DNA from: Candidatus Woesearchaeota archaeon
Lineage (GTDB): Archaea; Nanobdellota; Nanobdellia; SCGC-AAA011-G17; JACPNG01
Length of the DNA stretch: 64,000 nt
Reading direction: 5' to 3'
NCBI GenBank assembly: GCA_016185615.1
Contig: JACPNE010000003.1
Span: forward strand, 6,265 to 70,264
Positions 21,283 through 45,149 of this stretch are shown one piece after another. A model generated the notes under the pieces. The model saw nothing but the letters and a program-made list of their open reading frames with translations. It had not been told where the DNA came from and ran no database searches. Positions within the stretch are counted from its first letter, which is position 1, and every line of letters begins with the position of its first letter. The position numbers and the translations under genes were made by a program.

Positions 21283-21515
21283 TAAGAGAATTTATTAGAA
21301 GAACTTTTGGGTTTGGAGCAAAAACAATATTGGACAATAGAGATTTAGATAGGAAAGATTTGAAAGACATGACAAAAAACGTGATTAATGAGTCAGTAAA
21401 AGAAGAAAAAAGGCTAAAAAATGTAATGAGGAAAGAGGTAAAAAAATCCATCAAAAGAGTTGCTTCTAAAGCAAAAGTTTCCAAAAAGAAAGCTAAAAGA
21501 AAAAAGAGGAGATAG
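21279..21515 (+). CDS. small Lys/Arg-rich hypothetical protein
   Basis: 78 aa. ATGA overlap with the UbiB stop suggests translational coupling. The composition is low-complexity, so the call is uncertain. Confidence 0.35.
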   Translation: MIREFIRRTFGFGAKTILDNRDLDRKDLKDMTKNVINESVKEEKRLKNVMRKEVKKSIKRVASKAKVSKKKAKRKKRR

Positions 21516-22362
21516 ATTGACAATAGAGAATATACTATTGACTGTAGGCATTGTTGGATTAGTGGCTGCTTCTGTTTCTGATATAAAGACAAAAGAAGTT
21601 CCTGACTGGATAAGCTACAGTATGATATTCTCTGGAATATTTCTAAGATTGATCTTTTCAGCAAAAACTTTTATTTGGTCTTTCTTTTTTATTGGACTTT
21701 TGGGATTTTTTAGTATGTTATTGCTTGGAAATCTAATGTACTACACAAAACAATGGGGTGGGGGAGACACAAAAATCATGATGGGTATTGGTGCATTATT
21801 TGCTACCATAAATGAACAAAATTTATTTTTGCTTAATTTGATAATTAATTTACTCATTGTTGGAGCCATATATGGATTAGTATGGAGTATTATACTTGCA
21901 ATCAAAAACAAAGATAAATTTTTGAAAGAAATGCATAAAAAAATGAGAGATAATAAAAGATTGGGTTTAATATTATTAATAATATCAATAATTCTAACAA
22001 TAAATCTTCTCTTTGTACAAAATACAATAGTTAAAATATTTATATTTACAATTGTTTTGTTGGTTGGATTATATTATTATCTATTAATTGTTATAAAAGC
22101 AATTGAAGATTCTTCAATGTACAAGATGATTTCTGTATCTAAGCTAACTGAAGGCGATTGGATAGCACACAATATCAAACTAAATCATAGGATTATATAC
22201 AAAAAATCTAGTTTGGGTGTAACGAAAGACCAACTTAGTCTTATAAAAAAGTCAAAAATAAAGAGAGTATTGATAAAAGAAGGCATTCCATTTATTCCTT
22301 CTATATTTATAGCAACACTAATAACTTTAGTTTATGGGAGTTTAGTTTCTTTATTAGTTTAG
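21460..22362 (+). CDS. type IV prepilin/preflagellin peptidase (A24 aspartic peptidase, PibD/FlaK/EppA-like)
   Basis: Polytopic membrane protein with two Asp motifs in A24 order: AASVSDIKTKEVPD and KQWGGGDTKIMMGIG (GxGD). The true start is probably TTG at 21517, directly after the stop of the preceding small ORF. Confidence 0.75.
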   Translation: MLLKQKFPKRKLKEKRGDRLTIENILLTVGIVGLVAASVSDIKTKEVPDWISYSMIFSGIFLRLIFSAKTFIWSFFFIGLLGFFSMLLLGNLMYYTKQWGGGDTKIMMGIGALFATINEQNLFLLNLIINLLIVGAIYGLVWSIILAIKNKDKFLKEMHKKMRDNKRLGLILLIISIILTINLLFVQNTIVKIFIFTIVLLVGLYYYLLIVIKAIEDSSMYKMISVSKLTEGDWIAHNIKLNHRIIYKKSSLGVTKDQLSLIKKSKIKRVLIKEGIPFIPSIFIATLITLVYGSLVSLLV

Positions 22363-27525: not shown

Positions 27526-28467
27526 TCAAAATTGATTAAACTCTTGTTCTACTGCAACAACAGGAATTTGTTTTGTTGCTACAACAGTTTTATATGGATA
27601 AGCTAATTTTATTATTAAAGGATTTTGGAAATAATTAGTTTCTGCTGGTAAACTAACTGTTAAAGTGCAGTAAGCCTCTCTTGTTTTTATCGTATCAGTA
27701 AATTTGATTATATTTTGATTGCAATTAAAAACCCCACTCCCCTCCAGATTAATGGCTCCGGCTATATTCAAACTTCTATCCTCATTATTAATCCGTCCAT
27801 CACTTCCACCAAAATCTTGGAAAGTAATTATTAAAGTTACAAATGCTTGGTCATTAACTGCATCAGTCTGTTGTTTTATGCTAGTTATTGCAACAGGTGA
27901 ATTGCGTGCATCAGGTCCAAGATCATTAATACTAAAGGAAGTTCTCGAAGTACATTCTTGTTCCCTTACATTCGCTTCTTCCCCCTTCACACATAGCTGG
28001 GTTATAAAATCCGCTTCATAGTCATATTCTAACTCTGCTCTTATTGCCGCGTTGGTTAAACTGCTATAAGAATATGCAAAAGTATCAAAATCAATCTCTT
28101 CTTCAACAACGGTTTGTCCAAATTCAGCTTCTCTTCCTTTTATTAAAAAACTTCTTGATATTCTTCCAGGAATAGCTTCTAAATTTCCTGTAGGGGTATC
28201 AGATAAATAAACTATTCCAGAAATATCCTTTGTTCCCCAATTCTGTAATAATGCTTCAACCCTAAAAGGAATCCCAATTCTTATTCTGTCTTGTGGCGGT
28301 TTTCCTTCTACGAATTTTAATGTAACTCCCCTATTAGATAATTGCCCTGGCTGATTAGGATTAACTTCAGTTGCAACATTTCTTGGCTGGGAATTAAAAG
28401 GTAATGTTGCACATCCAGAAACAACTACAACAAGGATTAATACTAATAAAAGAACTATATGCCTCAT
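27526..28467 (-). CDS. lipobox-containing secreted protein (paralogue of 16150-17109), last gene of the pilus-like operon
   Basis: Signal peptide MRHIVLLLVLILVVVVSG-C (lipobox). Collinear similarity to the 319-aa lipoprotein at 16150-17109. Confidence 0.65.
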   Translation of the reverse strand: MRHIVLLLVLILVVVVSGCATLPFNSQPRNVATEVNPNQPGQLSNRGVTLKFVEGKPPQDRIRIGIPFRVEALLQNWGTKDISGIVYLSDTPTGNLEAIPGRISRSFLIKGREAEFGQTVVEEEIDFDTFAYSYSSLTNAAIRAELEYDYEADFITQLCVKGEEANVREQECTSRTSFSINDLGPDARNSPVAITSIKQQTDAVNDQAFVTLIITFQDFGGSDGRINNEDRSLNIAGAINLEGSGVFNCNQNIIKFTDTIKTREAYCTLTVSLPAETNYFQNPLIIKLAYPYKTVVATKQIPVVAVEQEFNQF

Positions 28468-28479
28468 CTAATTAAAAAA

Positions 28480-29994
28480 CTATGGGTTGTTTAAAAGGTT
28501 TTCTGTAAAAAATACTACAGCTCCAGATACACTATTATCTAGTTGTCCAAATAATAAATTTTCAACCTTTCTTATTTCTATAGAAGCATCTTGTGTTACT
28601 CTATAAGTATATCCAGCATCAGCTTGAATTTTATATACTTCTAATAAATCTTGTTCTTGTGGAGCACCTTGTATCATTATTCCACAGTCAAATATTAAAT
28701 TATCCCTAAAACTTGGACATAATTGTGCATCTTTATTGTCAGAGTAGCAATATAATCTTATTCTATCGTTTATATCTTTTATAATTATAGATGATAAGTC
28801 TCCATCAGTAAATGATTCACAACTATCTTGGTTAATCGAAACCCCAGGTTCATTCAATGAACTTATTCTCAAATAATTTAACTTTTCTAAATTTCCACCC
28901 CAAACAAACTTATCTGAAACTGTGTTTATTAATCCAATTTTTATTCTTTCATTTTGTATTGTAAATGGTTGTCTTCCAAATAGTTGAATAGATAAAGGAA
29001 TTGGAGTTCTAGCACCAATTTGTTGTGATCTTATTTCCCCATCCCCTTTCCATAATCCAGAGTTAACTAATCCTTGATATAAATCATTTCTTTCAAATAA
29101 AAGTCTACCTACCCCACTTCTTGCTAAACTATCTTGACTTGTGACATATAGGTCTTGTATTGTTCTAGAGATTACATCATACTTAACATTTAATGTTATT
29201 AGTTTTCCAGTTCTTACTTGATCTTTTACAATACTAAAACTATTTTTTGGAAGAACGCATCTTACTTGCACTTGTCTTGTTATTCCAGAAGCCCCACCCA
29301 TAACAATTGTTGAGACTTCATTTATTCCCTTTGTCCCTTCACCAACTAATTCTATTTGTATTGGACCATTATAATCTTTTGAACTACAAGAGATATCTAA
29401 TCTAATATCATTTTGAACATTTTTTATATTAATTAGTCCATCTAATCTTATTTCTTCATCTTCATTATAAAATCTTCTTAATGATTCAAATTGCTGAATA
29501 ATTACCCCCATCTTCTCAGTAGGTTTTTCTGAGACTACATCTGGATTTTTAAATTCGCCTATCTCTTCTGGATATTTCAAGAATTTTACAAAATTATTAA
29601 CTATTGCGTCTTTTGTAGCTTCAAAGGACCTTCCTAAACTAGCTTCAGCTTTTGAGACAAAAATGTTACATGTTCCTCCTAAATACGGAACAGATTGAAG
29701 AAAAGTTGAACATGAAAAGTAAAAGAAAATTCCGACAATTAATACAACAAAAATCGCTTTTAATAAACTCGGCTTTTTACCATTTCTAACAGTAATGGAG
29801 GTTTGTTGAGGTTGTTGATAAACTGATTGTATTGGTTGAGAAGGTTGAGATTCTCTTCTCCTAAAAGGTGATGTAATAGCATCAAGTGGTTGTTTTGCTA
29901 CTCTCCATCTCCACTGCATTTTTTCCCATCTTCGTCTCTCTAAATTTAATCTTTTTAATTCTTCATCCTCACTTTCCTTTCCCCAAAAAGCCAT
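28480..29994 (-). CDS. membrane-anchored extracellular protein (basic/Gln-rich cytoplasmic N-tail, one TM)
   Basis: The ORF track gives 28480-30024. ATG at 29994 (MAFWGKESEDE...) is preferred because GAGGT precedes it and it clears the upstream stop at 30005-30007. Single TM LLKAIFVVLIVGIFFYF, about 75-90 residues from the N-terminus depending on the start chosen. No known domain recognised. Confidence 0.65.
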   Translation of the reverse strand: MAFWGKESEDEELKRLNLERRRWEKMQWRWRVAKQPLDAITSPFRRRESQPSQPIQSVYQQPQQTSITVRNGKKPSLLKAIFVVLIVGIFFYFSCSTFLQSVPYLGGTCNIFVSKAEASLGRSFEATKDAIVNNFVKFLKYPEEIGEFKNPDVVSEKPTEKMGVIIQQFESLRRFYNEDEEIRLDGLINIKNVQNDIRLDISCSSKDYNGPIQIELVGEGTKGINEVSTIVMGGASGITRQVQVRCVLPKNSFSIVKDQVRTGKLITLNVKYDVISRTIQDLYVTSQDSLARSGVGRLLFERNDLYQGLVNSGLWKGDGEIRSQQIGARTPIPLSIQLFGRQPFTIQNERIKIGLINTVSDKFVWGGNLEKLNYLRISSLNEPGVSINQDSCESFTDGDLSSIIIKDINDRIRLYCYSDNKDAQLCPSFRDNLIFDCGIMIQGAPQEQDLLEVYKIQADAGYTYRVTQDASIEIRKVENLLFGQLDNSVSGAVVFFTENLLNNP

Positions 29995-30004
29995 ATTACC
30001 TCTT

Positions 30005-31246
30005 TTACTCCCTCTCAGGATCAAATTTAAACATTAAAATCATATTTTCTTGGATTAAATTGTTATTTTTGTTTGTTAACAATTTAAAGTTAGTTATAAT
30101 TTCGAATTTAATAAATCTATCTTCTCTATTAAGATTCCATTGAAGTCCTTTTTTATCTTCAATGCAATTGGATAAATCAAAAGTTATGTCTTTCGTTTTT
30201 AGGCATTCTTTAGATTTCATAACTTCACTATGTAACTCATCCAGAATGTTGAAATTAAAATTAATTTTTTCAATGAAAGAAGGATCTCTTTCATATGTTC
30301 CCGTAACTATTGTTTCTCTTTTTATGTCTGAAGATACAACTGATCCTGTTATTCTATTTAATTCGTTATTAACTTTTTTAACATAATTTTGAGTTTCTTT
30401 TAATTCTGGAATTTTTCCTAAACTAGCCACTCTTGATGGACCCGCATTATAAGCAGCTAGTGCTAAATCAATATTTTTGAATTTGTCTAGTTGTAATTTT
30501 AGATAAGCAGTTCCAGTTAAGATATTCAATCTAGGATTAAACTTAGCATCTTCAAAATCCCATTCAACATTAAACTTATTTTTAACATCTTTAAATGCTA
30601 TCTCTCTTATTTGCATCAAACCATATGCATCTTTATTAGAGATTGATGTTGGATTATAATTAGATTCAACATTTATTACAGCCCTTATCAAATTTTCATC
30701 AACATTAAAGGTTTGGCTAGCTTCTTTTATCCAATGATCATATCCAACATCCTTTACAGAAAAATCTATTACTTTCTTTTCTTTTAATGTTATATTATCA
30801 TTGTTTATTTCAAATAAAAGAGAATTTTTAGATTTAACAATGAGATTATTATCTTGAATTGTGTAATCAAAATCCAATTTTGGAATTTTGTTATTTAAAT
30901 TTAAATAATTCTTAAAATTGTTATCAAAGTATAATAGATAGTCTTCTTTATTTGGTTTACATTCATTATTCCAAACAAATTCATTTTCTGATTTACATCC
31001 TTCTTTTCTTAACCCACCATTTTTTCCAAACTCATTTAATGCATCATTGATAGAATTCCTTGCACTCTGTTTTATATATTGCCTAATAAACTCTCCCTTT
31101 TGATATAGTTGAATTATGTCTATTTGATTCTTTCCTGCTTCTCCGGCAATTGATGTATTTGTAGTTAAAACAGTTAATGTGGCATAAGCTAATAAGAACG
31201 CAGTTAATGCAACCAAAGTCGGCAAATAGATTCCTTTTTTGTTCAT
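30005..31246 (-). CDS. prepilin-like N-terminus fused to lytic transglycosylase (SLT, GH23-like) domain
   Basis: N-terminus MNKKG-IYLPTLVALTAFLLAYATL. SLT signatures in order: AVINVESNYNP (catalytic E-S), AYGLMQI, LAAYNAGPSRV. Confidence 0.85.
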   Translation of the reverse strand: MNKKGIYLPTLVALTAFLLAYATLTVLTTNTSIAGEAGKNQIDIIQLYQKGEFIRQYIKQSARNSINDALNEFGKNGGLRKEGCKSENEFVWNNECKPNKEDYLLYFDNNFKNYLNLNNKIPKLDFDYTIQDNNLIVKSKNSLLFEINNDNITLKEKKVIDFSVKDVGYDHWIKEASQTFNVDENLIRAVINVESNYNPTSISNKDAYGLMQIREIAFKDVKNKFNVEWDFEDAKFNPRLNILTGTAYLKLQLDKFKNIDLALAAYNAGPSRVASLGKIPELKETQNYVKKVNNELNRITGSVVSSDIKRETIVTGTYERDPSFIEKINFNFNILDELHSEVMKSKECLKTKDITFDLSNCIEDKKGLQWNLNREDRFIKFEIITNFKLLTNKNNNLIQENMILMFKFDPERE

Positions 31247-31821
31247 GATAATCCTTTAAACAATTTCAGTTTTATATTAACTAAATTCTTTTTATAATCA
31301 GGCAAAGATAATGAATATTCCAGACTATTTCTGAATTTTTTGTCGAATCCAACTAATGGAAGTATTTTTGGTTCAGTTCCAGTAGTTACTATTGCATCTG
31401 TATTAAAAGAGTGTATTATGGGATCATAACCCCCATTCAGGAAGATAGTTTTGTCAGTAAATTTAATTTCTAAATACCATAAGCAGACTTCTTGTGGGTT
31501 ATCTACTAGCATTTTGCTGTCAACTTTGCATATTTTGTTCATTGGTTCTCTTACTTTTTCTTTTATTTTGTCTTTATCGTTTTGATTTAAGATAATAAAT
31601 TCATACAGATTAACATCTTCAATCGGTGTATTCATCAGATTTTTCAATGTCAAACCACCATCATTGCTAACCTTCTTTGAGGTTATTATCTCACTTATAT
31701 TTTTCATATCAGCATATGAAATTTCATTTGCAAACAAAACAAAGAAGACAGTCAATATTATTGCAAGAGTTATTATTGAAAAGCCATCCATTAATCCCTC
31801 TCCCAAAACTCCTTTTTTCAT
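31243..31821 (-). CDS. prepilin-like protein (192 aa)
   Basis: N-terminus MKKG-VLGEGLMDGFSIITLAIILTVFFVLF. ATGA overlaps on both sides. Confidence 0.6.
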   Translation of the reverse strand: MKKGVLGEGLMDGFSIITLAIILTVFFVLFANEISYADMKNISEIITSKKVSNDGGLTLKNLMNTPIEDVNLYEFIILNQNDKDKIKEKVREPMNKICKVDSKMLVDNPQEVCLWYLEIKFTDKTIFLNGGYDPIIHSFNTDAIVTTGTEPKILPLVGFDKKFRNSLEYSLSLPDYKKNLVNIKLKLFKGLS

Positions 31822-32285
31822 TGGACTATTACCTCTGCTTTTAATATATCATAACTAACTTTACCATTATTTGAAACTAGAACATATTGCTGGCTTTTGA
31901 ATAAACATTGTTTTTGTTTATTTCCAACTTGGCAAAGATTAAAAGCATCTCTATAATTTTCTATGTTAGATATTGTTTTTTCATTATTTTCTAACTCTAA
32001 TTTTATTGGATAGTTTAATCCAATACAATTTCTCAATCTTTCTTCAGTAAATTTACTAATATCTATCTCTCCTGGCTCAATAACAACATTTTGCAATGCA
32101 AAACATTCAGAAGAGTAATACAATTTTCTTATTGTTAAGTCTGCTATTGACTCATTAATATTTATCTCTCTAGCTATAGCTGAATTTACTACAAAAAATA
32201 CTGCACCGAGAATGATGATAGTTAACAATATTCTATTTATCCATAATAATGTCTCTCCAGAGATCATATAAGCGCCCTTTTTCAT
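31818..32285 (-). CDS. prepilin-like protein (155 aa)
   Basis: N-terminus MKKG-AYMISGETLLWINRILLTIIILGAVFFVV. ATGA overlaps on both sides. Confidence 0.6.
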   Translation of the reverse strand: MKKGAYMISGETLLWINRILLTIIILGAVFFVVNSAIAREININESIADLTIRKLYYSSECFALQNVVIEPGEIDISKFTEERLRNCIGLNYPIKLELENNEKTISNIENYRDAFNLCQVGNKQKQCLFKSQQYVLVSNNGKVSYDILKAEVIVQ

Positions 32286-33118
32286 GTTATTTTATTCCTC
32301 TCTATAGAATCTTTATAGCTATAAGCATACATATTATCAAAACAATTTGAATTTGATTTGAAAGAAAGGCTATTAGGATCAAAATAATTAATCGGATCCT
32401 CTACTTTTCCATTGATAACAAGTTCAAAATGTAAATGTGGTTCATATTGTGTGTGGCTTTTTGGTCCATGTTGCCCAGATTTAGCTATTAGCTCCCCTTT
32501 TCTAACTTCACAATTTTCTACACAATTAAATCCACTTAATTTTATTTCTTTTGATAATTTATCTAGATGCAAATATCTAGTAATAACTCCATTCCTATGT
32601 TCAATAGTTAACGAATTCTCAGTTCCGGCCCCATTAACATATGTTTTTATTATTCCATCTTCTATAACAAAAACATCTTCATAATTGGCTCTCAAATCTA
32701 CTCCTTCATGATAAGAAGTTCCTTCGCTTATTTGCCTATTACCGAAGCAGGAGGTAACTATTTTTTGATTTACTGGGAAGACAAAATCAGTTGTTCTTAT
32801 GGCAAGATTCTTTTTCTGTTCTCTTATAAGCAAATTTATATTTGGAGAATAAGTTGAAAATATCTTATTTGATGAAATTTTATTTCCACTTATATCAAGA
32901 TTTCTGTCACCATATTGATAATTTAAATTTAGTTTGCCAGGAGAAAGCTGGGCAGTATTTAATAATAATGATGTATCCAAGGACACATACCTATCAGAAA
33001 ATCCAGATGCTTCAGCAGTTCTATCTATCATAAAGATAGTAGTTATAACAACAAATCCAACTAGAAGAAGATAAAAAGCCCACAAGATGGTTCTTTCTTC
33101 TTCACCCCTTTTATCCAT
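32282..33118 (-). CDS. prepilin-like/TM N-terminus fused to M23 (LytM/lysostaphin-type) metallopeptidase domain
   Basis: N-terminus MDKRG-EEERTILWAFYLLLVGFVVITTIF. M23 zinc motifs HxxxD (SYHEGVDL) and HxH (EPHLHFEL), with intervening TIEHRNGVITRYLHL. Confidence 0.85.
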   Translation of the reverse strand: MDKRGEEERTILWAFYLLLVGFVVITTIFMIDRTAEASGFSDRYVSLDTSLLLNTAQLSPGKLNLNYQYGDRNLDISGNKISSNKIFSTYSPNINLLIREQKKNLAIRTTDFVFPVNQKIVTSCFGNRQISEGTSYHEGVDLRANYEDVFVIEDGIIKTYVNGAGTENSLTIEHRNGVITRYLHLDKLSKEIKLSGFNCVENCEVRKGELIAKSGQHGPKSHTQYEPHLHFELVINGKVEDPINYFDPNSLSFKSNSNCFDNMYAYSYKDSIERNKIT

Positions 33119-33136: not shown

Positions 33137-33592
33137 TTATTTATTATTGTTTTGGTCTATAGAAACCCCTGAAGAGTCATATCTTATCTTTAGTACTCCT
33201 CCCCCACTTGAAATTTCTCCAGAATTTTTGAATTTTTTGTTGACTTCTTTACATTCAAATTTCTCGCATGATAAATCTAAGCACAGGCATAAACAACTTC
33301 TTAAAGTGCATACTGGAGACTGCTGTTTAATTTTATCGTTTATTGAGTCTGGATTTAAGTATTCTATTAAATATCCGTCTTTTAAGTTGTAATATGTCTC
33401 AATAAACGGATTATTTAGGCTTAATTTATCTATATCTCTGGAAATATATTCAAATGAATTGTAGCTCTGTTTGTCTATTGTGCTATACTGTGGCAATAGA
33501 CCAATAAAAGAACTTGATACATTATAAAGAACAAGAAGGACAATAACCCCAACTATTAATCCAACTACGGCCTTGCCCGTTATTAAAGTCAT
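33137..33592 (-). CDS. prepilin-like protein (151 aa, Cys-containing)
   Basis: N-terminus MTLITGKA-VVGLIVGVIVLLVLY. Distal CTLRSCLCLCLDLSCEKFEC Cys cluster. Confidence 0.55.
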   Translation of the reverse strand: MTLITGKAVVGLIVGVIVLLVLYNVSSSFIGLLPQYSTIDKQSYNSFEYISRDIDKLSLNNPFIETYYNLKDGYLIEYLNPDSINDKIKQQSPVCTLRSCLCLCLDLSCEKFECKEVNKKFKNSGEISSGGGVLKIRYDSSGVSIDQNNNK

Positions 33593-33629: not shown

Positions 33630-34082
33630 TTAACATGTAATTTCTGGGCAACCAACGCCCAAATCTAAGATACTATTTGATCCATATCTTTCTTTTATTA
33701 AACCCTCATTAGTTCTAGCCTTATCACTACATGTATAAACAGTATCATATTTCCCGTCACTACCTATGTTTGATCTGCCATCTATCACAAAAGCAGTATT
33801 ACAATAAGCTGAATTTTTTCTTAAATTTCCTGTATCTGGTAGTAACTTAGCTTGATCACAAAATTGTTGACAGCTTTGAACAGCTAAAACCTCATCAGTC
33901 CCTGCTGTAGTCGAGTAAAATGTAGATTTTATTCTATCTGTTAGCCCTTTAAAACCACCAAAAAAGAATGTAACAACAACAACTAAAACTAGAATAGCTA
34001 ATATTGCAATTATGATTGTGTTTAGAGTTAAACTTTGACCTCTTTTGTCCATCTTTTTTTGCATAAAGATATTAGTAATCAT
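33630..34082 (-). CDS. candidate major pilin (class III signal KRG-Q, Cys-rich globular part)
   Basis: ..MQKKMDKRG-QSLTLNTIIIAILAILVLVVVVTFFFGG, with Q at +1 as in many archaeal pilins. The start is probably ATG 34064 or 34052, because TATA-like ttttatatata abuts the first ATG. An 89-bp upstream spacer is present. 7 Cys in the C-terminal part. Confidence 0.65.
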   Translation of the reverse strand: MITNIFMQKKMDKRGQSLTLNTIIIAILAILVLVVVVTFFFGGFKGLTDRIKSTFYSTTAGTDEVLAVQSCQQFCDQAKLLPDTGNLRKNSAYCNTAFVIDGRSNIGSDGKYDTVYTCSDKARTNEGLIKERYGSNSILDLGVGCPEITC

Positions 34083-34171: not shown

Positions 34172-35590
34172 CTAATTCGATTTTGCTATACAAGAATCGC
34201 TTTTGATTATACATCCTGTTGCTGAAAATCCACATGGATCTTGTTCACATAAAGGTTGCCATTCATGTGTGCGTAGTCTTGTATCGTGCCCGCTTGGGTT
34301 AATTGATTTGCTACTGTATGCATCGCAACTTTTTAGAGTTATGGTTGCACAGGAGAAACAGCTACCAGTATTGCCTCCAGTCCATCCCCAAGGAGCATAA
34401 TCATTTACAGTATCCTTCCAATAACATCTAAACAACCCATTACCAAATCCTTTATTTTTTCTTTCACAAACTGAATAATCAATATTTTTTGTGTTCTCTA
34501 AACAATCATTTTTAAGACTATTTTTAAAAGTAGTTGATTTGATTCCTAAACTATTTGGAAATTCTTCCAATAGTTTAGAATAGTATAAATAATAAATAGT
34601 TTGATCTTCTGTTATACATCTATCCGCTATTTCTCTTAATGCTTCAGCAAAAATAGGTTTATTCTTATCTTCAACCCCATTATTGTTAATTAAATATAAA
34701 TTTTCATAAGATTTCCTATCAACATATTGTCTTAGTTTAATCTGGAATTCTTGACAACTAGGATTTTGTTTAGCATTTAGAAGAGCAGTTTTATAATTTA
34801 TACTATTCTTAAAAGATTTCATTACTTGTGTATCTTTACTTAATAATTCTCTAAAATTTTCATCATTAGATAAAGTTCTTAATGCTTCTAAAGTATCTGC
34901 TTTTATATAAGCGGATTTTAATTCTTCAAATTTTTTTTCATTTCCTTCAAATGATTTTTGAACTTTTTCTAGTTCTTCCAATCTTTTTTTGATAGAATCT
35001 GGAAGCCCATTAGGGAAATGCTTTAATGCTTCAGATTTAGCTAAATCAATTCTATCTTTTGTAGGATTAGAGATGGCAGCATCTATTAAACTATTTACTA
35101 TAAATAGTTTATCTTCTTGACTGGTTACTCCTGCTCCTAATGAAGCTATACCTTGTAAATTAGAGTTCATTTTATAACAGTTAATTAACTTAATTCTTAA
35201 ATCCCTAGATAACTTTTCTTTGTCAGTCACTTCATGTTTTTTAATTTCATTCAATGCATCATTATACTCTTTAGTTAATTGAACAACATTATCAGAATTA
35301 CATTCTCCACGATCTGCTAATAATGATATAACTTTGTCCCTTCTACCATCTTTGCTTAATAATCCAAAAGTATTATCAATAATTGGTTTTACACCCTCTG
35401 TTAATCCAATAGCTGTATCCCCTAGTTTACCAACCCCTTTTGATAAAGCAGGCCAATATTTAAAGATAAACATAATTATTATAATTAAAACTGCTATTGC
35501 TATTATTCCATTAATAAATTTCCACCATTCTCCTTCTCCTTTTTTGTTCAATTTATTTTTTATATTTCTCTTTTTTTTCATTTCAACCAA
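34172..35590 (-). CDS. large prepilin-like/TM-anchored extracellular protein (472 aa, helical middle, Cys-rich C-terminus)
   Basis: N-terminus ..NKLNKKG-EGEWWKFINGIIAIAVLIIIIMFIF. The C-terminal ~110 aa contain 13 Cys. Confidence 0.6.
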   Translation of the reverse strand: MVEMKKKRNIKNKLNKKGEGEWWKFINGIIAIAVLIIIIMFIFKYWPALSKGVGKLGDTAIGLTEGVKPIIDNTFGLLSKDGRRDKVISLLADRGECNSDNVVQLTKEYNDALNEIKKHEVTDKEKLSRDLRIKLINCYKMNSNLQGIASLGAGVTSQEDKLFIVNSLIDAAISNPTKDRIDLAKSEALKHFPNGLPDSIKKRLEELEKVQKSFEGNEKKFEELKSAYIKADTLEALRTLSNDENFRELLSKDTQVMKSFKNSINYKTALLNAKQNPSCQEFQIKLRQYVDRKSYENLYLINNNGVEDKNKPIFAEALREIADRCITEDQTIYYLYYSKLLEEFPNSLGIKSTTFKNSLKNDCLENTKNIDYSVCERKNKGFGNGLFRCYWKDTVNDYAPWGWTGGNTGSCFSCATITLKSCDAYSSKSINPSGHDTRLRTHEWQPLCEQDPCGFSATGCIIKSDSCIAKSN

Positions 35591-35720
35591 AACTAGTTAA
35601 CTTTAACAAAGCATCTTTTAAGTTATTTATATTTGTTAGAAAAATTATAACCAATACTAAAACTATTAACACAATTATTGCGCTTGCAATTTGCCAAAAT
35701 TCAAATCCTTTTTTATCCAT
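35583..35720 (-). CDS. 45-aa minimal prepilin-like micro-protein
   Basis: Unlisted ORF, translated manually: MDKKG-FEFWQIASAIIVLIVLVLVIIFLTNINNLKDALLKLTSFG. Its start abuts the stop of the preceding micro-ORF. Confidence 0.5.
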   Translation of the reverse strand: MDKKGFEFWQIASAIIVLIVLVLVIIFLTNINNLKDALLKLTSFG

Positions 35721-35861
35721 CTAAAAATTCTCCTTTAGTTTTAATAAGATATTTGACATCTGATCCTTAAATATTATAGCTAAATAAACAACTATTACTA
35801 TTACTATAACCATGATTATTAGTTTAGCAACAGTTTCCCAATGAAATTCTCCTTTTTCCAT
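35721..35861 (-). CDS. 46-aa minimal prepilin-like micro-protein
   Basis: Unlisted ORF: MEKG-EFHWETVAKLIIMVIVIVIVVYLAIIFKDQMSNILLKLKENF. Same architecture as the neighbouring 45-aa ORF (shared ..N.LLKL.. tail). Confidence 0.5.
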   Translation of the reverse strand: MEKGEFHWETVAKLIIMVIVIVIVVYLAIIFKDQMSNILLKLKENF

Positions 35862-35896: not shown

Positions 35897-36769
35897 TTAT
35901 CTCGCATAACCAGTGCATAATTCTTTAACTCCTTCCGAATCTGTCGCAATAATCAACGAATTAAATCCTTTACTTTGTAGAAGAGCATTAGCTCCCCCAG
36001 TGCCAACAGCCAGTAATCCGCCACCTATAAGCGCATATGGTTTAGATATATATTTGATGCCAGGAATATTTGCAATTATAACTGCTGTAGCTACTGTTGT
36101 AACAGCCCCCCTTCCAATTCTATTTAATATTCCTTCTTTTTTATTCACTATAAACAAAACAAATAATGATTTATCTTTTGTTATTTCAAGATCTTGTAAT
36201 CCAGCAACTAATTGATTTTCTCTTGTACCTGTCCCAGTTATATAATCTAAGTATGTTCTCTTATCAAGGAGTGGTTTCGGCTTATTATCTCTTAAATAAA
36301 TCGCCATTTCCTCATTGCTTATCTTAATCTCATTTTCAGAGCTTATTTTAGAACAGACATAACAAAGATCATTATCCTTAAACCACCCAGTATAATCTAT
36401 GTCACCATAAAAATTAAATTTTCCCTCTCCAAACCTTCCCCAACAGTTTGCCATCTCTTTTGCTATAACCTTTTTAGCTTCTTCTTTGGTTTTTACATTT
36501 TCTGAGTTAGTCTTACAATTAAGATTAAAAGGAGAGTTAACTTGTGGTACAATACTACCTGCAACTGGAGCTTTTTCTAACACAGCACCAACACCATATG
36601 TTTTGCTATATGTTTTTATAACAACACTAGAAAAACATATTGTATCATTAATATTGTCTAAAACAAATGGTTTCCAAAAATATATTAAGATTAAGAATAA
36701 GACAATTAAAGATATTGTTAACCCAATTAATCCAGTAATTATTGAAAATTCTCCTTTTTTTTCAGCCAA
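35897..36769 (-). CDS. prepilin-like protein (290 aa) with additional Gly-rich hydrophobic C-terminal segments
   Basis: TTG start in the ORF track. N-terminus MAEKKG-EFSIITGLIGLTISLIVLFLIL. C-terminal ..AVTTVATAVIIANIPG..ALIGGGLLAVGTGGANALL. Confidence 0.6.
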   Translation of the reverse strand: MAEKKGEFSIITGLIGLTISLIVLFLILIYFWKPFVLDNINDTICFSSVVIKTYSKTYGVGAVLEKAPVAGSIVPQVNSPFNLNCKTNSENVKTKEEAKKVIAKEMANCWGRFGEGKFNFYGDIDYTGWFKDNDLCYVCSKISSENEIKISNEEMAIYLRDNKPKPLLDKRTYLDYITGTGTRENQLVAGLQDLEITKDKSLFVLFIVNKKEGILNRIGRGAVTTVATAVIIANIPGIKYISKPYALIGGGLLAVGTGGANALLQSKGFNSLIIATDSEGVKELCTGYAR

Positions 36770-36994: not shown

Positions 36995-37186
36995 TTAATG
37001 AAATTTATTAATGCTTATTCCATATAATACTGCTATGGCACCTATTCCTACAATAATGATTTGATATGTTGCTCCTGAACTTGGAATTATTTTTACAGCT
37101 TCTGGAATAAATTCATAACTAGATATTAATGGCCATATTCCTCCCAACATTGTTAGGATTCCAACAAATGTTATCATCAGTTTCAT
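36995..37186 (-). CDS. small 2-TM membrane protein
   Basis: 63 aa with two hydrophobic helices. Directly follows the 222-aa membrane protein (1-nt spacer). Confidence 0.5.
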   Translation of the reverse strand: MKLMITFVGILTMLGGIWPLISSYEFIPEAVKIIPSSGATYQIIIVGIGAIAVLYGISINKFH

Positions 37187-37187
37187 T

Positions 37188-37856
37188 TTAAGTTGTTGAT
37201 TTTTTTATTATTCCCCAAACTATTAAAGCTATTGATCCCAAAAATGCTATATTAAACCATGGCATTAAGTCTATAGGAATTGCAGGACTAAAAATAAAAA
37301 AATTAAAACCAGTGTACTGGTCCAATAAACCAAAATAAGCCATATAAAATACAATGTATGCTCCACCCATTCCAATTAATCCTGAACCAGTAGTCTGATC
37401 TAAGATACTATAAACAAAAACTGAAAGTAGGATTATGATTATGAAAAATGCCCAAGGTCCAAAATTTTCTAATAATGAAAATCCGGTTTGTCTTTCCCAA
37501 ATTAACAAAGCTATTGATAAAAATATTCCTAGTCCAACATAAACAGCTTTTCCTCCTCCCTCTAAATGTTTTCCTAAGATTGATTGTCCTAAACCTAAGA
37601 ATATAGCTAAAAATATTCCCAAATCAAAAAAACTTGTATACTGATAATACAATTCTAGAATATCAAATTGATCATAACCTAAACCATATCCCCTATAAAC
37701 TGCTCCAGAAGTAAAATTTCCAGAGATTAAAAATAATACAAATATTCCAAGGAAGATACTCCCAGTTATTGCTATCTTGCTAGAGATATTATGAAGAGTT
37801 ATTCTATACTCTTCTTTTTTCTGAGTCCTCTTTTTCTTCATTATTATCCTAAACAA
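37188..37856 (-). CDS. polytopic membrane protein with internally duplicated LENFG/FD-type motif (family shared with 43471-45119)
   Basis: 222 aa. The segments SFFDLGIFLAIFLGLGQSILGKHLEGG and LLENFGPWAFFIIIILLSVFVYSILDQTTGSG both resemble the N-termini of the three paralogues at 43.5-45.1 kb. Confidence 0.6.
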   Translation of the reverse strand: MFRIIMKKKRTQKKEEYRITLHNISSKIAITGSIFLGIFVLFLISGNFTSGAVYRGYGLGYDQFDILELYYQYTSFFDLGIFLAIFLGLGQSILGKHLEGGGKAVYVGLGIFLSIALLIWERQTGFSLLENFGPWAFFIIIILLSVFVYSILDQTTGSGLIGMGGAYIVFYMAYFGLLDQYTGFNFFIFSPAIPIDLMPWFNIAFLGSIALIVWGIIKKSTT

Positions 37857-37879: not shown

Positions 37880-40045
37880 TCAAGCCACAGAAGTTATAAC
37901 ATTAATTCCATTCGCTAATACATTAAATACAAATATTCCAATTAATGATATAATAAAGTATAATCCAACCCCAAATATTAAACTTTTCCCAAGTTCATAT
38001 TTTCTCATAATCTTATCATCATTATTTTCAATTGCATTCCTTAAAATTGTTAATACAATTATTATTTCTAAGATATAAATTCCTATAACCAATTGAAAAT
38101 GAAAGCTTGGGATTACATCCTCTATCCTTAATATTTCTATTAATCCTTGTAAATTTCCAACCCCTTCCTCATTTGTCAGAGATACTGATTTGAACTGCTC
38201 CCCAAGCTTATTTATTATTGTAACAACCATTGAAGCGACTCCGACAACAATTGCTGCTATCATTGGTGCTAAGAAACTCGCTTGAGATTTCATGCTGCTT
38301 ATTATTTCTGCTAATAAATCTTTCATCCTTTCAGCCACCTTATGAATTCTATCTGCATAAACTGAGATGCTGATAAGACTCTTTGATACAACTTCAGGGC
38401 CTTTCTTAGCACTCTCAATCAAAACTTTCATGCTACTTTCAATTAGTTTAGAAGGAAAGTAAAGCAATGCTCCCCTTTCTTGATTGAATATTGCTTCATT
38501 AACGCTCATTCCCAGTTTTCTAATATTTATATTTACAATTCTAAAGAAGTTTCCTGTTGGCGTTCCTTCCAAGTCTTCTGAAATTTTTCCGAATGCCGAT
38601 TCAACAGGAATTCCACTGCCAACCCTATTTCCTAATTGAAACAAACTTCCTGTAAACTCTCTTTCTAGTTTATCTGTCTCTCTTTTGATGTCAATTAAAT
38701 TTTTTGTGTTTGCTTTGTAATACATTCCAATTGCTAAAGCCAATCCTAATGGGACAAATAAACTAAGTATCAAAGACCAAATCCCATATGGCCCGATGTA
38801 TTTATTACATACCCCATTTATTTCTTCTAAACATTTGTAATCAAGAAGTTTGCCGCCAATCCCCTCCTCCAAGAATCCAACCTGATCAAAATCATTAGTA
38901 ATTAAATGTAGCAAAACGGGCATAAATCCAATTAGTAAAAAAACAAATCCGATTAATAAAGAGATTAATAATGCTGAATCATTTTTATATTTTTTAACTT
39001 CTGGATTATTCTCAAATAAATCACTCTCTCCAAAACCACTAACTCTTTTTGATAAAATATTAATTCCTAATATTAAGACTAAAGGGGGAAGTAAAAAATT
39101 GTAGATAATTGATAAATGCCACCATTTAACTGCACCCCTCAAGAAACTTGAAACTAAAGGAAATATTACAATTCCCAATATTGGCAATATAATTCCAAGC
39201 ATATGTAACATTGTAATTGGAGAATTTAACTCATGTGCAAAATGTAACATCTTGTCATATGTTCCATCAAGCATGACTTCTAAGCTCTTATCAAGCAAAG
39301 CGACTCTTTTTGATTCATTAGGCTCTTGTAAACTTGCTTCAATTAAATGTAAAGATTCTACAAACTCTAAATTATAATTTTTCCATCCCTCTAAATAAAC
39401 ATCAAGACTTTCTTTCATTGTTGAATATTTATCGGTTTCAACATCCCAGAAAACTTTTCTTAAATCCAAAGCCATTGGATTTCCTATGTGCTCCCCAGCA
39501 AATTTAATTGCTCTTTCTAAATTGCTTGTATGTCTCATATACATAACAACATAAAGAATGCATAAAACCATTTGATTACTTGCCTTTAGTCTATATCTGT
39601 TAGCCAAATAATTTGGTATTTTGCTTAATGGCTTTATTATTAATGCTCCTAACAACAACAGGAATAACGGGGTAAAGATTAATATTTCTCCAAGAAAAAA
39701 TGAAACTAAAGCAACTATGGCTGCAATTAGTATTATTATTCCGGCTAAAATAACTGAAAAACTATAAGCCCCAATTGGAGTTATGTCTAAATGTAATATG
39801 TTTATTGATTTTTGTAATTCTTCTTCATCTTTTTGTTGAGGTTTTATCTTGATAATCCCTTCGGAAAAATTGCATAAATTTTCATAAATTGTTGTTTTTT
39901 TATCCAATAATTCTTTTCTGAATATATCATATTCTCTGGAAAACACCTCATTTGTTGGAAGATTTTCAAAAGAAAGATTTGATGTGCTTTCTAATTTTTT
40001 GCTATACTCTCCAAGAATCCTCTTTGTTTTTTCATCAATCTGCAT
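37880..40045 (-). CDS. type IV pilus/archaellum-type platform membrane protein (FlaJ/TadC/PilC-like)
   Basis: 721 aa, with many TM helices interleaved with two soluble helical regions. Immediately downstream of the secretion ATPase (1-nt spacer). The assignment is by architecture and position, not by motif. Confidence 0.65.
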   Translation of the reverse strand: MQIDEKTKRILGEYSKKLESTSNLSFENLPTNEVFSREYDIFRKELLDKKTTIYENLCNFSEGIIKIKPQQKDEEELQKSINILHLDITPIGAYSFSVILAGIIILIAAIVALVSFFLGEILIFTPLFLLLLGALIIKPLSKIPNYLANRYRLKASNQMVLCILYVVMYMRHTSNLERAIKFAGEHIGNPMALDLRKVFWDVETDKYSTMKESLDVYLEGWKNYNLEFVESLHLIEASLQEPNESKRVALLDKSLEVMLDGTYDKMLHFAHELNSPITMLHMLGIILPILGIVIFPLVSSFLRGAVKWWHLSIIYNFLLPPLVLILGINILSKRVSGFGESDLFENNPEVKKYKNDSALLISLLIGFVFLLIGFMPVLLHLITNDFDQVGFLEEGIGGKLLDYKCLEEINGVCNKYIGPYGIWSLILSLFVPLGLALAIGMYYKANTKNLIDIKRETDKLEREFTGSLFQLGNRVGSGIPVESAFGKISEDLEGTPTGNFFRIVNINIRKLGMSVNEAIFNQERGALLYFPSKLIESSMKVLIESAKKGPEVVSKSLISISVYADRIHKVAERMKDLLAEIISSMKSQASFLAPMIAAIVVGVASMVVTIINKLGEQFKSVSLTNEEGVGNLQGLIEILRIEDVIPSFHFQLVIGIYILEIIIVLTILRNAIENNDDKIMRKYELGKSLIFGVGLYFIISLIGIFVFNVLANGINVITSVA

Positions 40046-44004: not shown

Positions 44005-44016
44005 TTTTAATTACTT

Positions 44017-45119: not shown

Positions 45120-45149
45120 AATCTACTAAAGAATAAATAGTATAAAAAT

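What the first reader, a model, noticed from the sequence alone, without database searches (positions are those of the whole stretch)
32282..33118. M23 (LytM/lysostaphin-type) peptidase domain with prepilin-like anchor in the same operon as the SLT
Residues ~113-246 (nt 32381-32782) show the M23 zinc ligand motifs HxxxD (SYHEGVDL) and HxH (EPHLHFEL), with the typical intervening beta-strand block (TIEHRNGVITRYLHLDKL). The N-terminus MDKRG-EEERTILWAFYLLLVGFVVITTIF matches the operon-wide signature. The operon thus holds both a glycan-strand cleaver (SLT) and a peptide cross-bridge cleaver (M23). That is the minimal toolkit to breach a peptidoglycan sacculus, and here both enzymes appear wired to a pilus-type export route.
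Basis: partly seen in the sequence, partly recalled or inferred. Interest (0 to 1): 0.78.

Follow-up and report, generated by a model that had tools for sequence, protein, structure and literature searches.

The report
Cell-wall-cutting enzyme fused to archaeal pilin
A tiny marine archaeon of the Woesearchaeota group, which has no bacterial-type cell wall of its own, has fused a bacterial-wall-cutting peptidase (M23) and a glycan cutter (SLT) onto pilin-like subunits of its pilus operon, suggesting a pilus-mounted tool for attacking bacteria.

Summary
ORF 32282-33118 (-) is a 278-aa protein with a real Peptidase_M23 domain (Pfam 57.4 bits against a cut-off of 28.7). All five metal and catalytic residues (H137, D141, H184, H228, H230) are intact and invariant in its homologs, and the predicted fold matches LytM.

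The window comes from a low-GC Woesearchaeota/Nanoarchaeia (DPANN) archaeon. The gene lies in a tightly packed type IV filament operon: a FlaI/TadA-like ATPase, a platform-like membrane protein, 45/46-aa Flp-like mini-pilins and several M-x-K-[KR]-G + helix proteins. It is joined by ATGA overlaps to two such proteins and then to an intact SLT. A class III signal peptidase (Peptidase_A24) is encoded 10 kb away.

New here: residues 1-~105 of the M23 protein are homologous to a conserved ~125-aa protein found in about 30 distant Woesearchaeal operons that lack M23. The SLT domain is an insertion into another conserved ~240-aa operon protein. Other lineages carry SLT on a third scaffold, or M23 on the SLT-type scaffold.

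Peptidoglycan hydrolase modules were therefore grafted repeatedly onto pilin-like subunits. The best reading is a filament-displayed device for digesting bacterial cell wall. Signal cleavage, incorporation into a filament and the target are all inferred. I rate it a new variant of a known kind.

The parts
32282..33118 (-). The finding: a 278-aa modular protein made of a class-III-like leader, a helix, a scaffold domain and an M23 endopeptidase
   Evidence: ORF; Pfam M23 at 57.4 bits; Pgp3 alignment; invariant H137/D141/H184/H228/H230; model and fold search
33104..33118 (-). Leader M-D-K-R-G (residues 1-5), the putative class III signal-peptidase site after G5
   Evidence: M1, K3 and G5 are the only (near-)invariant columns across a family that is otherwise 15-28% identical. 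The consensus over 317 operon proteins is M-N-K-K-G
33008..33103 (-). Hydrophobic N-terminal alpha-helix (residues ~6-37), pilin alpha1-like
   Evidence: AF2 helix 3-37 with pLDDT 73-86; hydropathy 2.88
32792..33007 (-). Scaffold domain (residues ~38-109), homologous to a conserved 111-163-aa operon protein of distant Woesearchaeota
   Evidence: jackhmmer 75-107 bits to about 30 loci; alignment A4; hhalign without the helix gives prob 95.9%, E 5.8e-9, against 3.5% for a reversed control. The AF2 model is of low confidence here
32369..32791 (-). M23 catalytic domain (residues ~110-250) with a family-specific C199-x3-C203 loop
32285..32368 (-). C-terminal tail (residues 251-278) with the conserved SNC..N.YAY motif, which travels with the M23 module on both scaffold types
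31818..32285 (-). p155, a pilin-like protein (MKKG + helix); its start overlaps the M23 stop in an ATGA
   Evidence: homologs in 30 distant loci
31243..31821 (-). p192, a pilin-like protein (MKKG + helix), with ATGA overlaps on both sides
   Evidence: homologs in 18 distant loci
30005..31246 (-). 413-aa SLT protein: a conserved ~240-aa pilin-like scaffold (MNKKG + helix) with an inserted lytic transglycosylase domain
   Evidence: Pfam SLT at 90.2 bits; the flanks match 234-273-aa hydrolase-free proteins; hhalign gives 98.8% for the N flank and 98.2% for the C flank
30365..30751 (-). The inserted SLT (GH23) domain, residues ~166-294, with E194-S, GLMQ and AYNAG
33137..33592 (-). p151, a scaffold protein that carries a C-terminal SLT domain in other lineages (L021, L050, L078, L065, L069/70)
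33630..34082 (-). p150, a pilin-like protein with the most canonical archaeal class III signal (MDKRGQSLTLNTIIIAIL...)
   Evidence: homologs in 35 distant loci
34172..35590 (-). p472 (called as 469 aa in identical contigs), ..NKKGEGEWW + helix, with a large extracellular part
35583..35861 (-). Two mini-pilins of 45 and 46 aa (MDKKG|FEFW..., MEKG|EFHWE...), candidate Flp-like major subunits
   Evidence: homologs in 31-41 distant loci; Pfam Flp1_like at 23.6 bits, below the 33.5 cut-off
35897..36769 (-). p290, a pilin-like protein (MAEKKG + helix)
   Evidence: 47 distant loci
36995..37856 (-). p63 and the 222-aa polytopic membrane protein, conserved accessory components
37880..40045 (-). 721-aa platform-like polytopic membrane protein
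   Evidence: No Pfam or PDB sequence hit. It has 2580 homologs, the best 120 of them 50% or more identical (a few are fragments) and every source name Woesearchaeota or Nanoarchaeota. The AF2 model (pLDDT 77.5) has local matches to the EpsF/OutF/PilC cytoplasmic domains, prob 0.95-0.99 and TMt 0.63-0.75, but the global E-values are not significant
40047..42308 (-). 753-aa secretion ATPase of the type IV filament superfamily
   Evidence: Pfam T2SSE at 54.8 bits; sub-threshold NCBIfam hits to FlaI (120 bits) and TadA (119 bits)
21460..22362 (+). Class III (prepilin) signal peptidase
   Evidence: Pfam Peptidase_A24 at 47.2 bits against a cut-off of 26.5; six predicted membrane helices; the sequence shows ..SDIKTKEVPD.. 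and ..GGGDTK..
27526..30024 (-). p514 and a 313-aa lipoprotein, found only in close relatives of the window, all of which carry the hydrolases; function unknown

Best explanation
The gene encodes a modular, pilin-like subunit of a Woesearchaeal Tad/Flp-like type IV filament system, with an active M23 peptidoglycan endopeptidase as its C-terminal module.

Proposed mechanism:
1. The short leader M-D-K-R-G is removed by the genome's class III signal peptidase (21460-22362).
2. The hydrophobic helix docks the protein into the filament, or into a short pseudopilus or tip complex. That structure is built by the ATPase (40047-42308) and platform protein (37880-40045) from the 45/46-aa mini-pilins and the other M-x-K-K-G proteins.
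3. The M23 module, together with the SLT module inserted in a neighbouring subunit (30005-31246), is held outside the archaeal cell.
4. On contact with a bacterium the two enzymes cut the peptide cross-links and the glycan strands of its peptidoglycan locally. This would allow firm attachment, penetration or release of nutrients.

What is shown:
- the domain identities and the intact catalytic residues;
- the operon linkage;
- the conserved leader motif;
- the presence of the peptidase, the ATPase and a platform-like protein;
- the homology of the non-catalytic parts to conserved hydrolase-free operon proteins;
- the repeated, independent grafting of hydrolase modules.

What is inferred: leader cleavage, incorporation into a filament, enzymatic activity, and that the target is a bacterial host or prey.
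For: 1. M23 identity and intact ligands.

2. Archaeal host genome: RadA, RPA, PolD, Orc1 and intron-containing tRNAs. The platform homologs that carry a source organism name are all Woesearchaeota, Nanoarchaeota or Nanoarchaeia. Archaea lack murein (textbook knowledge; also stated in PMC8204110).

3. Filament machinery: T2SSE ATPase, a platform-like protein with GspF/PilC-like domains, Peptidase_A24, and Flp-like mini-pilins.

4. Leader motif enrichment: 8/14 against 2/68 in the window, and 72% against 10% over about 70 loci. M1, K3 and G5 are the only (near-)invariant columns of the scaffold family.

5. Scaffold homology:
- The M23 N-part matches a ~125-aa conserved protein in about 30 operons.
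- The SLT flanks match a ~240-aa conserved protein.

6. Independent grafts:
- SLT on the p151-type scaffold in L021, L050, L078, L065 and L069/70.
- M23 on the SLT-type scaffold in L095/P0129 and in about 10 other representative clusters.
- M23 on the M23N-type scaffold in at least 10 clusters.

7. The core operon exists without hydrolases in L013 and L014. SLT is present in 4 of 28 informative loci and M23 in 1 of 28. The hydrolases are therefore accessory and are not needed to assemble the machine.

8. Synteny of the whole M23...SLT string is kept at 60-63% protein identity.

9. The GC content of the region is ordinary for the window.
Against: - No known pilin family matches the scaffolds: Pfam and a PDB profile search found nothing.
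- The scaffold domain (residues 38-107) is modelled with low confidence, so a pilin fold is not shown.
- Residues +1 and +2 after G5 are E-E. From my memory of the FlaFind rule for archaeal class III signals this is atypical; I did not test it here.
- One homolog (P0127) starts MADEFEE without K-R-G. P0129 and P0174 start inside the helix as called, which may be a start-codon artefact.
- The platform protein has no sequence match to T2SSF, and the structural matches are only local.
- No host, expression, activity or localisation data exist.
- Some relatives have lost the catalytic residues (L019, P0165), so an enzymatic role is not universal.
Confidence: 0.6

Rival explanations
1. The enzymes are membrane-tethered surface hydrolases. 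The N-terminal segment is an uncleaved signal-anchor, or is cleaved but stays in the membrane as in the Sulfolobus bindosome proteins. The M23 and SLT enzymes then sit on the archaeal cell surface rather than in a filament, and operon membership reflects only co-regulation.
For: There is no sequence or confident structural match to any pilin family. The charged E-E-E-R right after G5 is unusual. A positively charged N-terminus followed by a helix is also what a type II membrane anchor looks like.
Against: G/A (occasionally S) after K/R is near-invariant across families that are otherwise 15-25% identical, and the motif is rare in other N-terminally anchored proteins of the same genomes (10%). 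A plain anchor would not need it. A dedicated A24 peptidase is present. The hydrolase modules sit specifically on three different conserved subunits of this one operon.
Confidence: 0.2
2. The role is nutrient scavenging rather than attack. The filament- or surface-displayed hydrolases digest free peptidoglycan debris or dead sacculi, so that an auxotrophic cell can harvest amino sugars and peptides, with no specific host.
For: DPANN archaea have reduced metabolism and are predicted scavengers (PMC9723730; PMC10936187). A 2026 survey proposes that archaeal type IV filaments carry substrate-binding proteins for scavenging (10.64898/2026.04.22.720090).
Against: An SLT produces anhydro-muropeptides, and no uptake or catabolic genes for muropeptides lie next to the operon in the window. 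Keeping both enzymes tethered rather than secreted fits contact-dependent action better. This rival differs from the best explanation only in the purpose of the digestion, not in the molecular set-up.
Confidence: 0.15
3. The enzymes make space in the organism's own wall. As with VirB1, BfpH, FlgJ or EtgA in bacteria, they would open the producer's own envelope so that the filament can be assembled.
For: The SLT's best NCBIfam matches include the flagellar assembly transglycosylase BB0259 and the T3SS protein IagB, both far below their cut-offs. Hydrolase genes inside filament or secretion operons are classic in bacteria (my own knowledge; also the reference list of PMC11452946).
Against: The organism is an archaeon, and no murein synthesis genes are seen in the 64 kb window. 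The same machine is encoded without any hydrolase in most relatives, including the 737-kb NCBI record CP066683.1 (L014).
Confidence: 0.04
4. The domain is a catalytically dead LytM-type adaptor. It would bind peptidoglycan or activate another hydrolase, as EnvC and NlpD do, rather than cutting.
For: Degenerate versions exist in relatives: L019 has lost every ligand and P0165 has lost two.
Against: In the window protein and its close homologs all five ligand and catalytic residues are invariant.
Confidence: 0.03

Closest known systems
Modular type IV pilins of Streptococcus sanguinis (PilB with a vWA module, PilC with a lectin module; PMC8179133 and PMC9934059, listed)
   Same: The layout is the same: a class III leader, a hydrophobic helix and a small pilin-like module, followed by a functional module. 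The gene lies inside the pilus operon as a minor subunit.
   Different: Here the host is an archaeon, the grafted module is an enzyme that degrades another organism's cell wall, and a pilin fold for the scaffold has not been demonstrated.
Sulfolobus bindosome, and the class-III-signal substrate-binding proteins of archaeal type IV filament systems (bioRxiv 10.64898/2026.04.22.720090)
   Same: These are non-pilin functional proteins of archaea that carry class III signals and depend on a dedicated ATPase/platform pair. The authors' idea is that of a 'functionalised' filament.
   Different: The cargo there is solute-binding proteins. That survey's text contains no occurrence of M23, transglycosylase, hydrolase or peptidoglycan.
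Murein hydrolases already reported in DPANN: giant SLT-domain proteins of Woesearchaeota and Pacearchaeota (PMC8204110), GH23 in Woesearchaeota MAGs (PMC9723730), and M23-containing modular hydrolases in four Nanoarchaeia genomes (PMC12352652)
   Same: The phylum, the enzyme families and the proposed antibacterial or episymbiotic role are the same.
   Different: Those reports describe stand-alone, giant, or cell-wall-binding-domain architectures. The passages I read make no link to pilin-like leaders, pilus operons or scaffold homology.
Specialised lytic transglycosylases in bacterial type IV pilus, T4SS, T3SS and flagellar operons (VirB1, BfpH, IagB, EtgA, FlgJ)
   Same: The hydrolase gene is embedded in a filament or secretion operon. 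The SLT here has weak NCBIfam similarity to BB0259 and IagB.
   Different: Those enzymes use Sec signals and cut the producer's own wall to make room for assembly. Here the producer has no murein and the machine exists without the enzymes in relatives.
Phage tail-tip wall-degrading proteins such as phi29 gp13, which combines a lysozyme-like domain with an M23 domain (from my own knowledge, not checked here)
   Same: A glycan cutter is combined with an M23 endopeptidase and mounted at the end of a filamentous or tubular device to pierce peptidoglycan locally. L011 even has M23 and SLT in a single chain.
   Different: The device here is a cellular type IV filament rather than a virion, and the two activities are on separate subunits.
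Campylobacter/Helicobacter Pgp3 and Csd, and Vibrio ShyA / E. coli MepM (M23 endopeptidases)
   Same: These are the closest solved structures and named families for the catalytic domain, and the same five ligand/catalytic residues align.
   Different: Identity is only about 20-35%. All NCBIfam scores are far below the equivalog cut-offs (67 bits against 300 for Pgp3). This family has an extra Cys-containing loop and an SNC..YAY tail, and a different N-terminal architecture.

Membership tests
Peptidase family M23 (Pfam PF01551, lysostaphin/LytM fold) | Profile match above the curated threshold | tested here: met
   57.4 bits against a gathering score of 28.7, covering profile positions 2-96 of 96
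Peptidase family M23 (Pfam PF01551, lysostaphin/LytM fold) | Zn ligands HxxxD and the second His of HxH, plus the two catalytic His residues | tested here: met
   H137/D141, H184 and H228/H230 align to the Pgp3 residues and are invariant in 7 homologs
Peptidase family M23 (Pfam PF01551, lysostaphin/LytM fold) | M23 beta-sheet fold | tested here: met
   The AF2 model has pLDDT of about 75-95 over residues 110-278. Foldseek finds 58 PDB matches at E<=1e-3, including LytM 2b13 at TMt 0.74
Peptidase family M23 (Pfam PF01551, lysostaphin/LytM fold) | Hydrolysis of peptidoglycan peptide bonds | not testable with these tools
   Needs recombinant enzyme and sacculi
Named M23 equivalogs (Pgp3, MepM, ShyA, DipM) | Score above the NCBIfam equivalog or exception cut-off | tested here: not met
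   The best hit is Pgp3 at 67 bits against a cut-off of 300; all others fall further short of their cut-offs. The protein is not a member of any named subfamily
Class III signal peptide / type IV pilin-like proteins | A short basic leader ending in G/A, followed directly by a ~20-residue hydrophobic helix | tested here: met
   MDKRG followed by helix 3-37. M1/K3/G5 are near-invariant in the family
Class III signal peptide / type IV pilin-like proteins | A cognate prepilin (A24) peptidase encoded in the genome | tested here: met
   Window 21460-22362 (+), Peptidase_A24 at 47.2 bits against 26.5
Class III signal peptide / type IV pilin-like proteins | Gene linked to the assembly ATPase and platform genes | tested here: met
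   Same strand, tightly spaced, 5-9 kb downstream of the ATPase and platform genes. The arrangement is conserved in L007, L010 and L012
Class III signal peptide / type IV pilin-like proteins | Match to a known pilin or class III signal profile, or to a pilin fold | tested here: not met
   No Pfam, NCBIfam or PDB-profile hit for the scaffold. The scaffold domain has pLDDT below 50
Class III signal peptide / type IV pilin-like proteins | Leader cleavage and incorporation into a filament | not testable with these tools
   Biochemistry or cryo-EM is needed
Type IV filament (Tad/Flp-like, archaeal TFF) assembly system | Secretion ATPase of the T2SSE/FlaI/TadA family | tested here: met
   PF00437 at 54.8 bits against 24.9. 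The FlaI and TadA NCBIfam hits of about 120 bits are below their equivalog cut-offs
Type IV filament (Tad/Flp-like, archaeal TFF) assembly system | Platform protein of the T2SSF/PilC/TadBC/FlaJ family | tested here: inconclusive
   No sequence match even with a 25-sequence profile. The AF2 model has local matches to the EpsF/OutF/PilC cytoplasmic domains, prob 0.95-0.99 and TMt 0.63-0.75, with global E of 1.4-3.9. One JGI record names a homolog TadB
Type IV filament (Tad/Flp-like, archaeal TFF) assembly system | A small major pilin | tested here: inconclusive
   There are 45/46-aa proteins with a leader and a single helix, conserved in 31-41 distant loci. The Pfam Flp1_like match is 23.6 bits, below the 33.5 cut-off
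SLT / GH23 lytic transglycosylase (partner enzyme 30005-31246) | Profile match and the catalytic E-S, GLMQ and AYNxG motifs | tested here: met
   PF01464 at 90.2 bits against 21.3; E194-S, GLMQ 209 and AYNAG 265

The most novel reading that the evidence does not exclude
The conserved Woesearchaeal Tad/Flp-like filament is a contact-dependent organelle for breaching bacterial cell walls. Its minor-subunit (tip) complex would be a modular platform on which peptidoglycan hydrolase cassettes (M23, SLT, or both) are swapped between scaffolds. This would be an archaeal counterpart of phage tail-tip lysins, giving ultra-small archaea physical access to bacterial hosts across domains.
Probability: 0.3. 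Interest if true: 0.85.

Novelty: new variant of a known kind. Interest (0 to 1): 0.7.

Why it matters
The hosts of Woesearchaeota and Pacearchaeota, and the way these very abundant ultra-small archaea attach to or feed on other cells, are unknown. Earlier papers noted murein hydrolase genes in them and guessed at bacterial hosts, but offered no delivery mechanism.

The evidence here ties the hydrolases physically, by fusion to conserved pilin-like subunits, to one specific and widely conserved filament operon. It also shows that this coupling arose several times. That turns a vague 'may attack bacteria' into concrete hypotheses:
- leader cleavage after G5;
- presence of the enzyme in the filament;
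- local cutting of D-Ala-mDAP cross-links and of glycan strands at the contact site.

It also supplies genetic markers, namely the operon together with the hydrolase-bearing subunits, for picking lineages likely to be associated with bacteria. Finally, it extends the concept of modular pilins to archaea and to enzymatic, inter-domain 'weapon' modules.

Tried and rejected
(1) The genome-contig scan with the M23 alignment returned only one locus, L011, because the patterns it derived were too specific. L011 carries sigma-70-like and RelA-like genes and may be a misbinned bacterial contig, so I did not use it as archaeal evidence.

(2) Sequence searches could not identify the 721-aa membrane protein as T2SSF. 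Pfam at E up to 10, phmmer against the PDB and a profile search against the PDB gave only spurious GPCR hits. Only the structure comparison gave local support.

(3) Attempts to place the scaffold domains in a known pilin family failed.

(4) A provirus or mobile-element origin was considered and rejected. GC content is uniform, and the operon sits between housekeeping genes (RPA, RadA, TraB block) in conserved synteny even in distant genomes.

(5) An inactive LytM was considered and rejected for this protein, although it is real for L019.

(6) jackhmmer drift through the hydrophobic helix was a concern. I repeated the comparison with hhalign on regions lacking the helix, with a reversed-sequence control for the M23 scaffold comparison.

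(7) The sigma-70 promoter/terminator scan was not used, because it does not apply to archaea.

(8) Five literature searches found no description of pilin-fused murein hydrolases in archaea. The library is incomplete, so absence from it is not proof of novelty.
Full report
**Observation.** The ORF at 32282-33118 on the minus strand encodes a 278-aa protein. Pfam places Peptidase_M23 on residues 136-242 with E=1.7e-15 and 57.4 bits, against a curated cut-off of 28.7. A search of PDB sequences finds Campylobacter Pgp3 (6jmx) best at E=2e-12. In an alignment of the seven closest database homologs (52-99% identity), H137, D141, H184, H228 and H230 are invariant, as are four cysteines. An AlphaFold2 model built on a 27-sequence alignment is confident over residues 110-278. 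Foldseek matches it to ShyA, Pgp3, LytM, lysostaphin and other M23 structures, with TM-scores up to about 0.75 normalised to the target.

**Organism and setting.** The window has about 30% GC throughout. It encodes RadA, an RPA-type single-strand-binding protein, both PolD subunits, Orc1/Cdc6, PAN, Hef and intron-containing tRNAs. It is therefore archaeal. Identical contigs occur in Logan assemblies SRR12113420-433, and close homologs come from Tara Oceans 0.1-0.22 µm fractions. Homologs of the neighbouring 721-aa membrane protein that carry an organism name are all labelled Woesearchaeota, Nanoarchaeota or Nanoarchaeia. The organism is thus an ultra-small DPANN archaeon.

**The operon.** From 42308 down to 27526 every gene is on the minus strand, with gaps of 0-90 nt apart from one of 225 nt. 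In order they are:
- a 753-aa ATPase (Pfam T2SSE; sub-threshold FlaI and TadA NCBIfam hits);
- a 721-aa polytopic protein;
- a 222-aa membrane protein;
- small proteins of 63, 46 and 45 aa;
- proteins of 290, 472, 150 and 151 aa;
- the M23 protein, then proteins of 155 and 192 aa, then a 413-aa SLT protein (Pfam SLT 90.2 bits; E194-S, GLMQ and AYNAG present);
- a 514-aa protein and a 313-aa lipoprotein.

M23, p155, p192 and SLT are joined by ATGA start/stop overlaps.

The 721-aa protein gave no sequence match to T2SSF, even as a 25-sequence profile. Its AlphaFold model (mean pLDDT 77.5) does have local Foldseek matches to the cytoplasmic domains of EpsF, OutF and PilC, with probability 0.95-0.99, TMt 0.63-0.75 and rmsd about 3 Å over 110-121 columns. 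The global E-values (1.4-3.9) are not significant. I treat it as a probable, very divergent platform protein.

A class III signal peptidase lies at 21460-22362 (+), with Peptidase_A24 at 47.2 bits against a cut-off of 26.5.

**The N-terminal signature.** In the window, 8 of 14 operon genes begin with [KR]G followed by a strongly hydrophobic 15-mer, against 2 of 68 genes elsewhere. A ninth, the 472-aa protein, has the motif slightly further in. I then looked at about 70 distinct related loci. Of the N-terminally hydrophobic proteins encoded within 9 kb downstream of the platform gene, 72% (317/440) have [KR][GA] in the first 14 residues. Elsewhere the figure is 10% (22/217). Fisher's test gives p=6e-55, and the consensus is M-N-K-K-G. 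The counts include homologous proteins, so they are not independent. In the M23-scaffold family, M1, K3 and G5 are the only invariant or near-invariant columns, although the proteins are otherwise only 15-28% identical. That is the pattern expected of a processing site, not of a plain membrane anchor.

**What the non-catalytic parts are.** I scanned metagenome contigs with an alignment of platform proteins and obtained 80 loci, with the platform protein 47-100% identical to the window's. In local searches, residues 1-~105 of the M23 protein match a 111-163-aa protein in about 30 of these operons at 75-107 bits. These include the NCBI record CP066683.1 (L014, 737 kb), whose operon has no M23. 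Because the hydrophobic helix could drive such matches, I repeated the comparison as profile against profile on the region after the helix. The result was probability 95.9% and E=5.8e-9, against 3.5% for a reversed control. The M23 domain is therefore a C-terminal addition to a conserved small subunit.

The SLT protein is built differently. Its residues 1-165 and 295-413 both align to a conserved 234-273-aa operon protein, and the SLT domain sits between them as an insertion. hhalign gives 98.8% and 98.2% for the two flanks, and four cysteines are (near-)invariant: C84, C96 and C348 in all sequences and C361 in at least 90%.

**Repeated grafting.** Hydrolase modules sit on three different scaffolds:
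- SLT on the p151-type scaffold. In L021, L050, L078, L065 and L069/70 an SLT domain is fused to the C-terminus of a homolog of the window's 151-aa protein.
- M23 on the SLT-type scaffold. In L095 (P0129) an M23 domain with the same SNC..YAY tail is attached to this scaffold, in the same operon slot just before RPA/YdjM.
- M23 on either scaffold, database-wide. An exhaustive HMMER search of 1.84 billion representatives returned 6,592 M23 hits at E<=1e-3. Among the best 150, about 25 are 300-480-aa proteins (one of 716 aa) that start M-x-K-K-[GAS] + helix and carry the M23 on one or other scaffold type.

L019 has an M23 fusion in which every ligand has been replaced.

Conversely, L013 and L014 have the full machine with no hydrolase. 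Among metagenome loci with at least 7 kb downstream of the platform gene, 4 of 28 carry SLT and 1 of 28 carries M23. The full M23...SLT arrangement of the window is conserved in relatives whose M23 is 60-63% identical (L007-L010), and in L012, where the platform is 60% and the M23 37% identical.

**Interpretation.** The hydrolases are accessory, lineage-specific modules mounted on conserved, leader-bearing subunits of one filament system, in an organism with no murein of its own.

- Best explanation (confidence about 0.6): the subunits are processed by the class III peptidase and assembled into a filament or tip complex. The filament would be built from the 45/46-aa Flp-like mini-pilins; p46 has a sub-threshold Flp1_like match. 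The M23 and SLT activities are thereby presented to bacterial peptidoglycan on contact.
- Uncleaved or merely membrane-retained surface enzymes remain possible (about 0.2).
- Scavenging of free wall debris differs only in purpose (about 0.15).
- Making space in the producer's own wall (about 0.04) and a dead LytM adaptor (about 0.03) are unlikely for this protein.

Leader cleavage, filament incorporation, catalysis and the target are all untested.

**Comparison with what is known.** Murein transglycosylases in Woesearchaeota and Pacearchaeota have been noted repeatedly (PMC8204110, PMC9723730, PMC10936187). M23-containing modular hydrolases were reported in four Nanoarchaeia genomes (PMC12352652). 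A 2026 survey of archaeal type IV filament systems describes class-III-signal substrate-binding proteins but does not mention hydrolases. Modular pilins are established in Streptococcus sanguinis. Five literature searches found nothing that links archaeal murein hydrolases to pilin-like scaffolds or to this operon, but the library is incomplete.

By family membership, the catalytic domain is a bona fide M23 but belongs to no named equivalog. The 'pilin' label meets the tests for leader, helix, peptidase and linkage. It fails the test of matching a known pilin profile or fold.

**Verdict.** The evidence from related loci makes it stronger and more specific: these are hydrolase-pilin fusions, generated repeatedly. 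I rate it a new variant of a known kind, with interest 0.7.

Noticed in passing
L019:18936-19757: A homolog of the M23 fusion in which all metal and catalytic residues are replaced (HxxxD to K.GIIL, H184 to A, HLH to LLL). This is a degenerate LytM on the same pilin-like scaffold. In that operon the SLT-type scaffold (20737-21543) carries no SLT domain.
   Followed up: partly
L011:3446-5266 (JACRKI010000131.1): A single 606-aa membrane protein carries M23 and SLT in tandem, in a contig binned as Woesearchaeota. The contig also encodes a sigma-70-like protein (9043-10482) and a RelA/SpoT-like protein (10-1179), so it may be a bacterial or CPR contig that was misbinned.
   Followed up: partly
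L095:10001-11029 (P0129): An M23 domain is appended to the SLT-type scaffold, in the same operon slot as the window's SLT protein. The called start lies inside the helix. An upstream in-frame GTG would give VNKKSQLF..., with S instead of G/A at position -1.
   Followed up: partly
window 35583-35720 and 35721-35861 (-): Two adjacent 45- and 46-aa ORFs (MDKKGFEFW..., MEKGEFHWE...) consist of a leader plus one helix and are conserved in 31-41 distant loci. They are probably Flp-like major pilins. They fall below common gene-calling length limits and below the Pfam cut-off (Flp1_like 23.6 bits against 33.5).
   Followed up: partly
window 17132-18424 (-), 57693-58280 (-), 1411-3381 (-): Three more proteins outside the operon have class-III-like N-termini (MKSKRGEAGT..., MQKRGQTTIF..., ...KKAQVTIFVIVG...). 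They have no Pfam domains and may be further substrates of the same peptidase.
   Followed up: no
window 27526-30024 (-): A 514-aa membrane protein and a 313-aa lipoprotein (lipobox ...VVSGC) lie at the end of the operon. Neither has a full-length (>=50% coverage) homolog in any distant locus; their matches (9 and 7 loci) are essentially confined to close relatives of the window, all of which carry the hydrolases. Neither has a Pfam domain. They could be adhesins, inhibitors or immunity factors.
   Followed up: no
window 42392-46151: A conserved block lies upstream of the ATPase: two divergently transcribed coiled-coil proteins, three paralogous 177-185-aa membrane proteins, and a TraB/PrgY-family protein. 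The same order is seen in L012, L013 and L014, so these may belong to the filament system.
   Followed up: no
window 54290-57715 (-): A 1141-aa cysteine-rich surface protein with repeated MopE-type metal-binding motifs, a TSP3 repeat and a C-terminal membrane helix.
   Followed up: no
window 4499-4592 (-) and 24166-24253 (+): Two tRNA genes appear to be interrupted. ARAGORN could not assign an anticodon to the first, and the second was found only by Rfam. This fits archaeal tRNA introns.
   Followed up: no
proteins P0170, P0190, P0192, P0197, P0205 and others: Among the nearest non-family M23 domains (33-36% identity) are 2000-4200-aa proteins with acidic N-termini (MAKEKDP..DD..) and the M23 near the C-terminus. 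Their origin is unknown (giant DPANN/CPR surface proteins or phage proteins), and they might be the source of the module.
   Followed up: no
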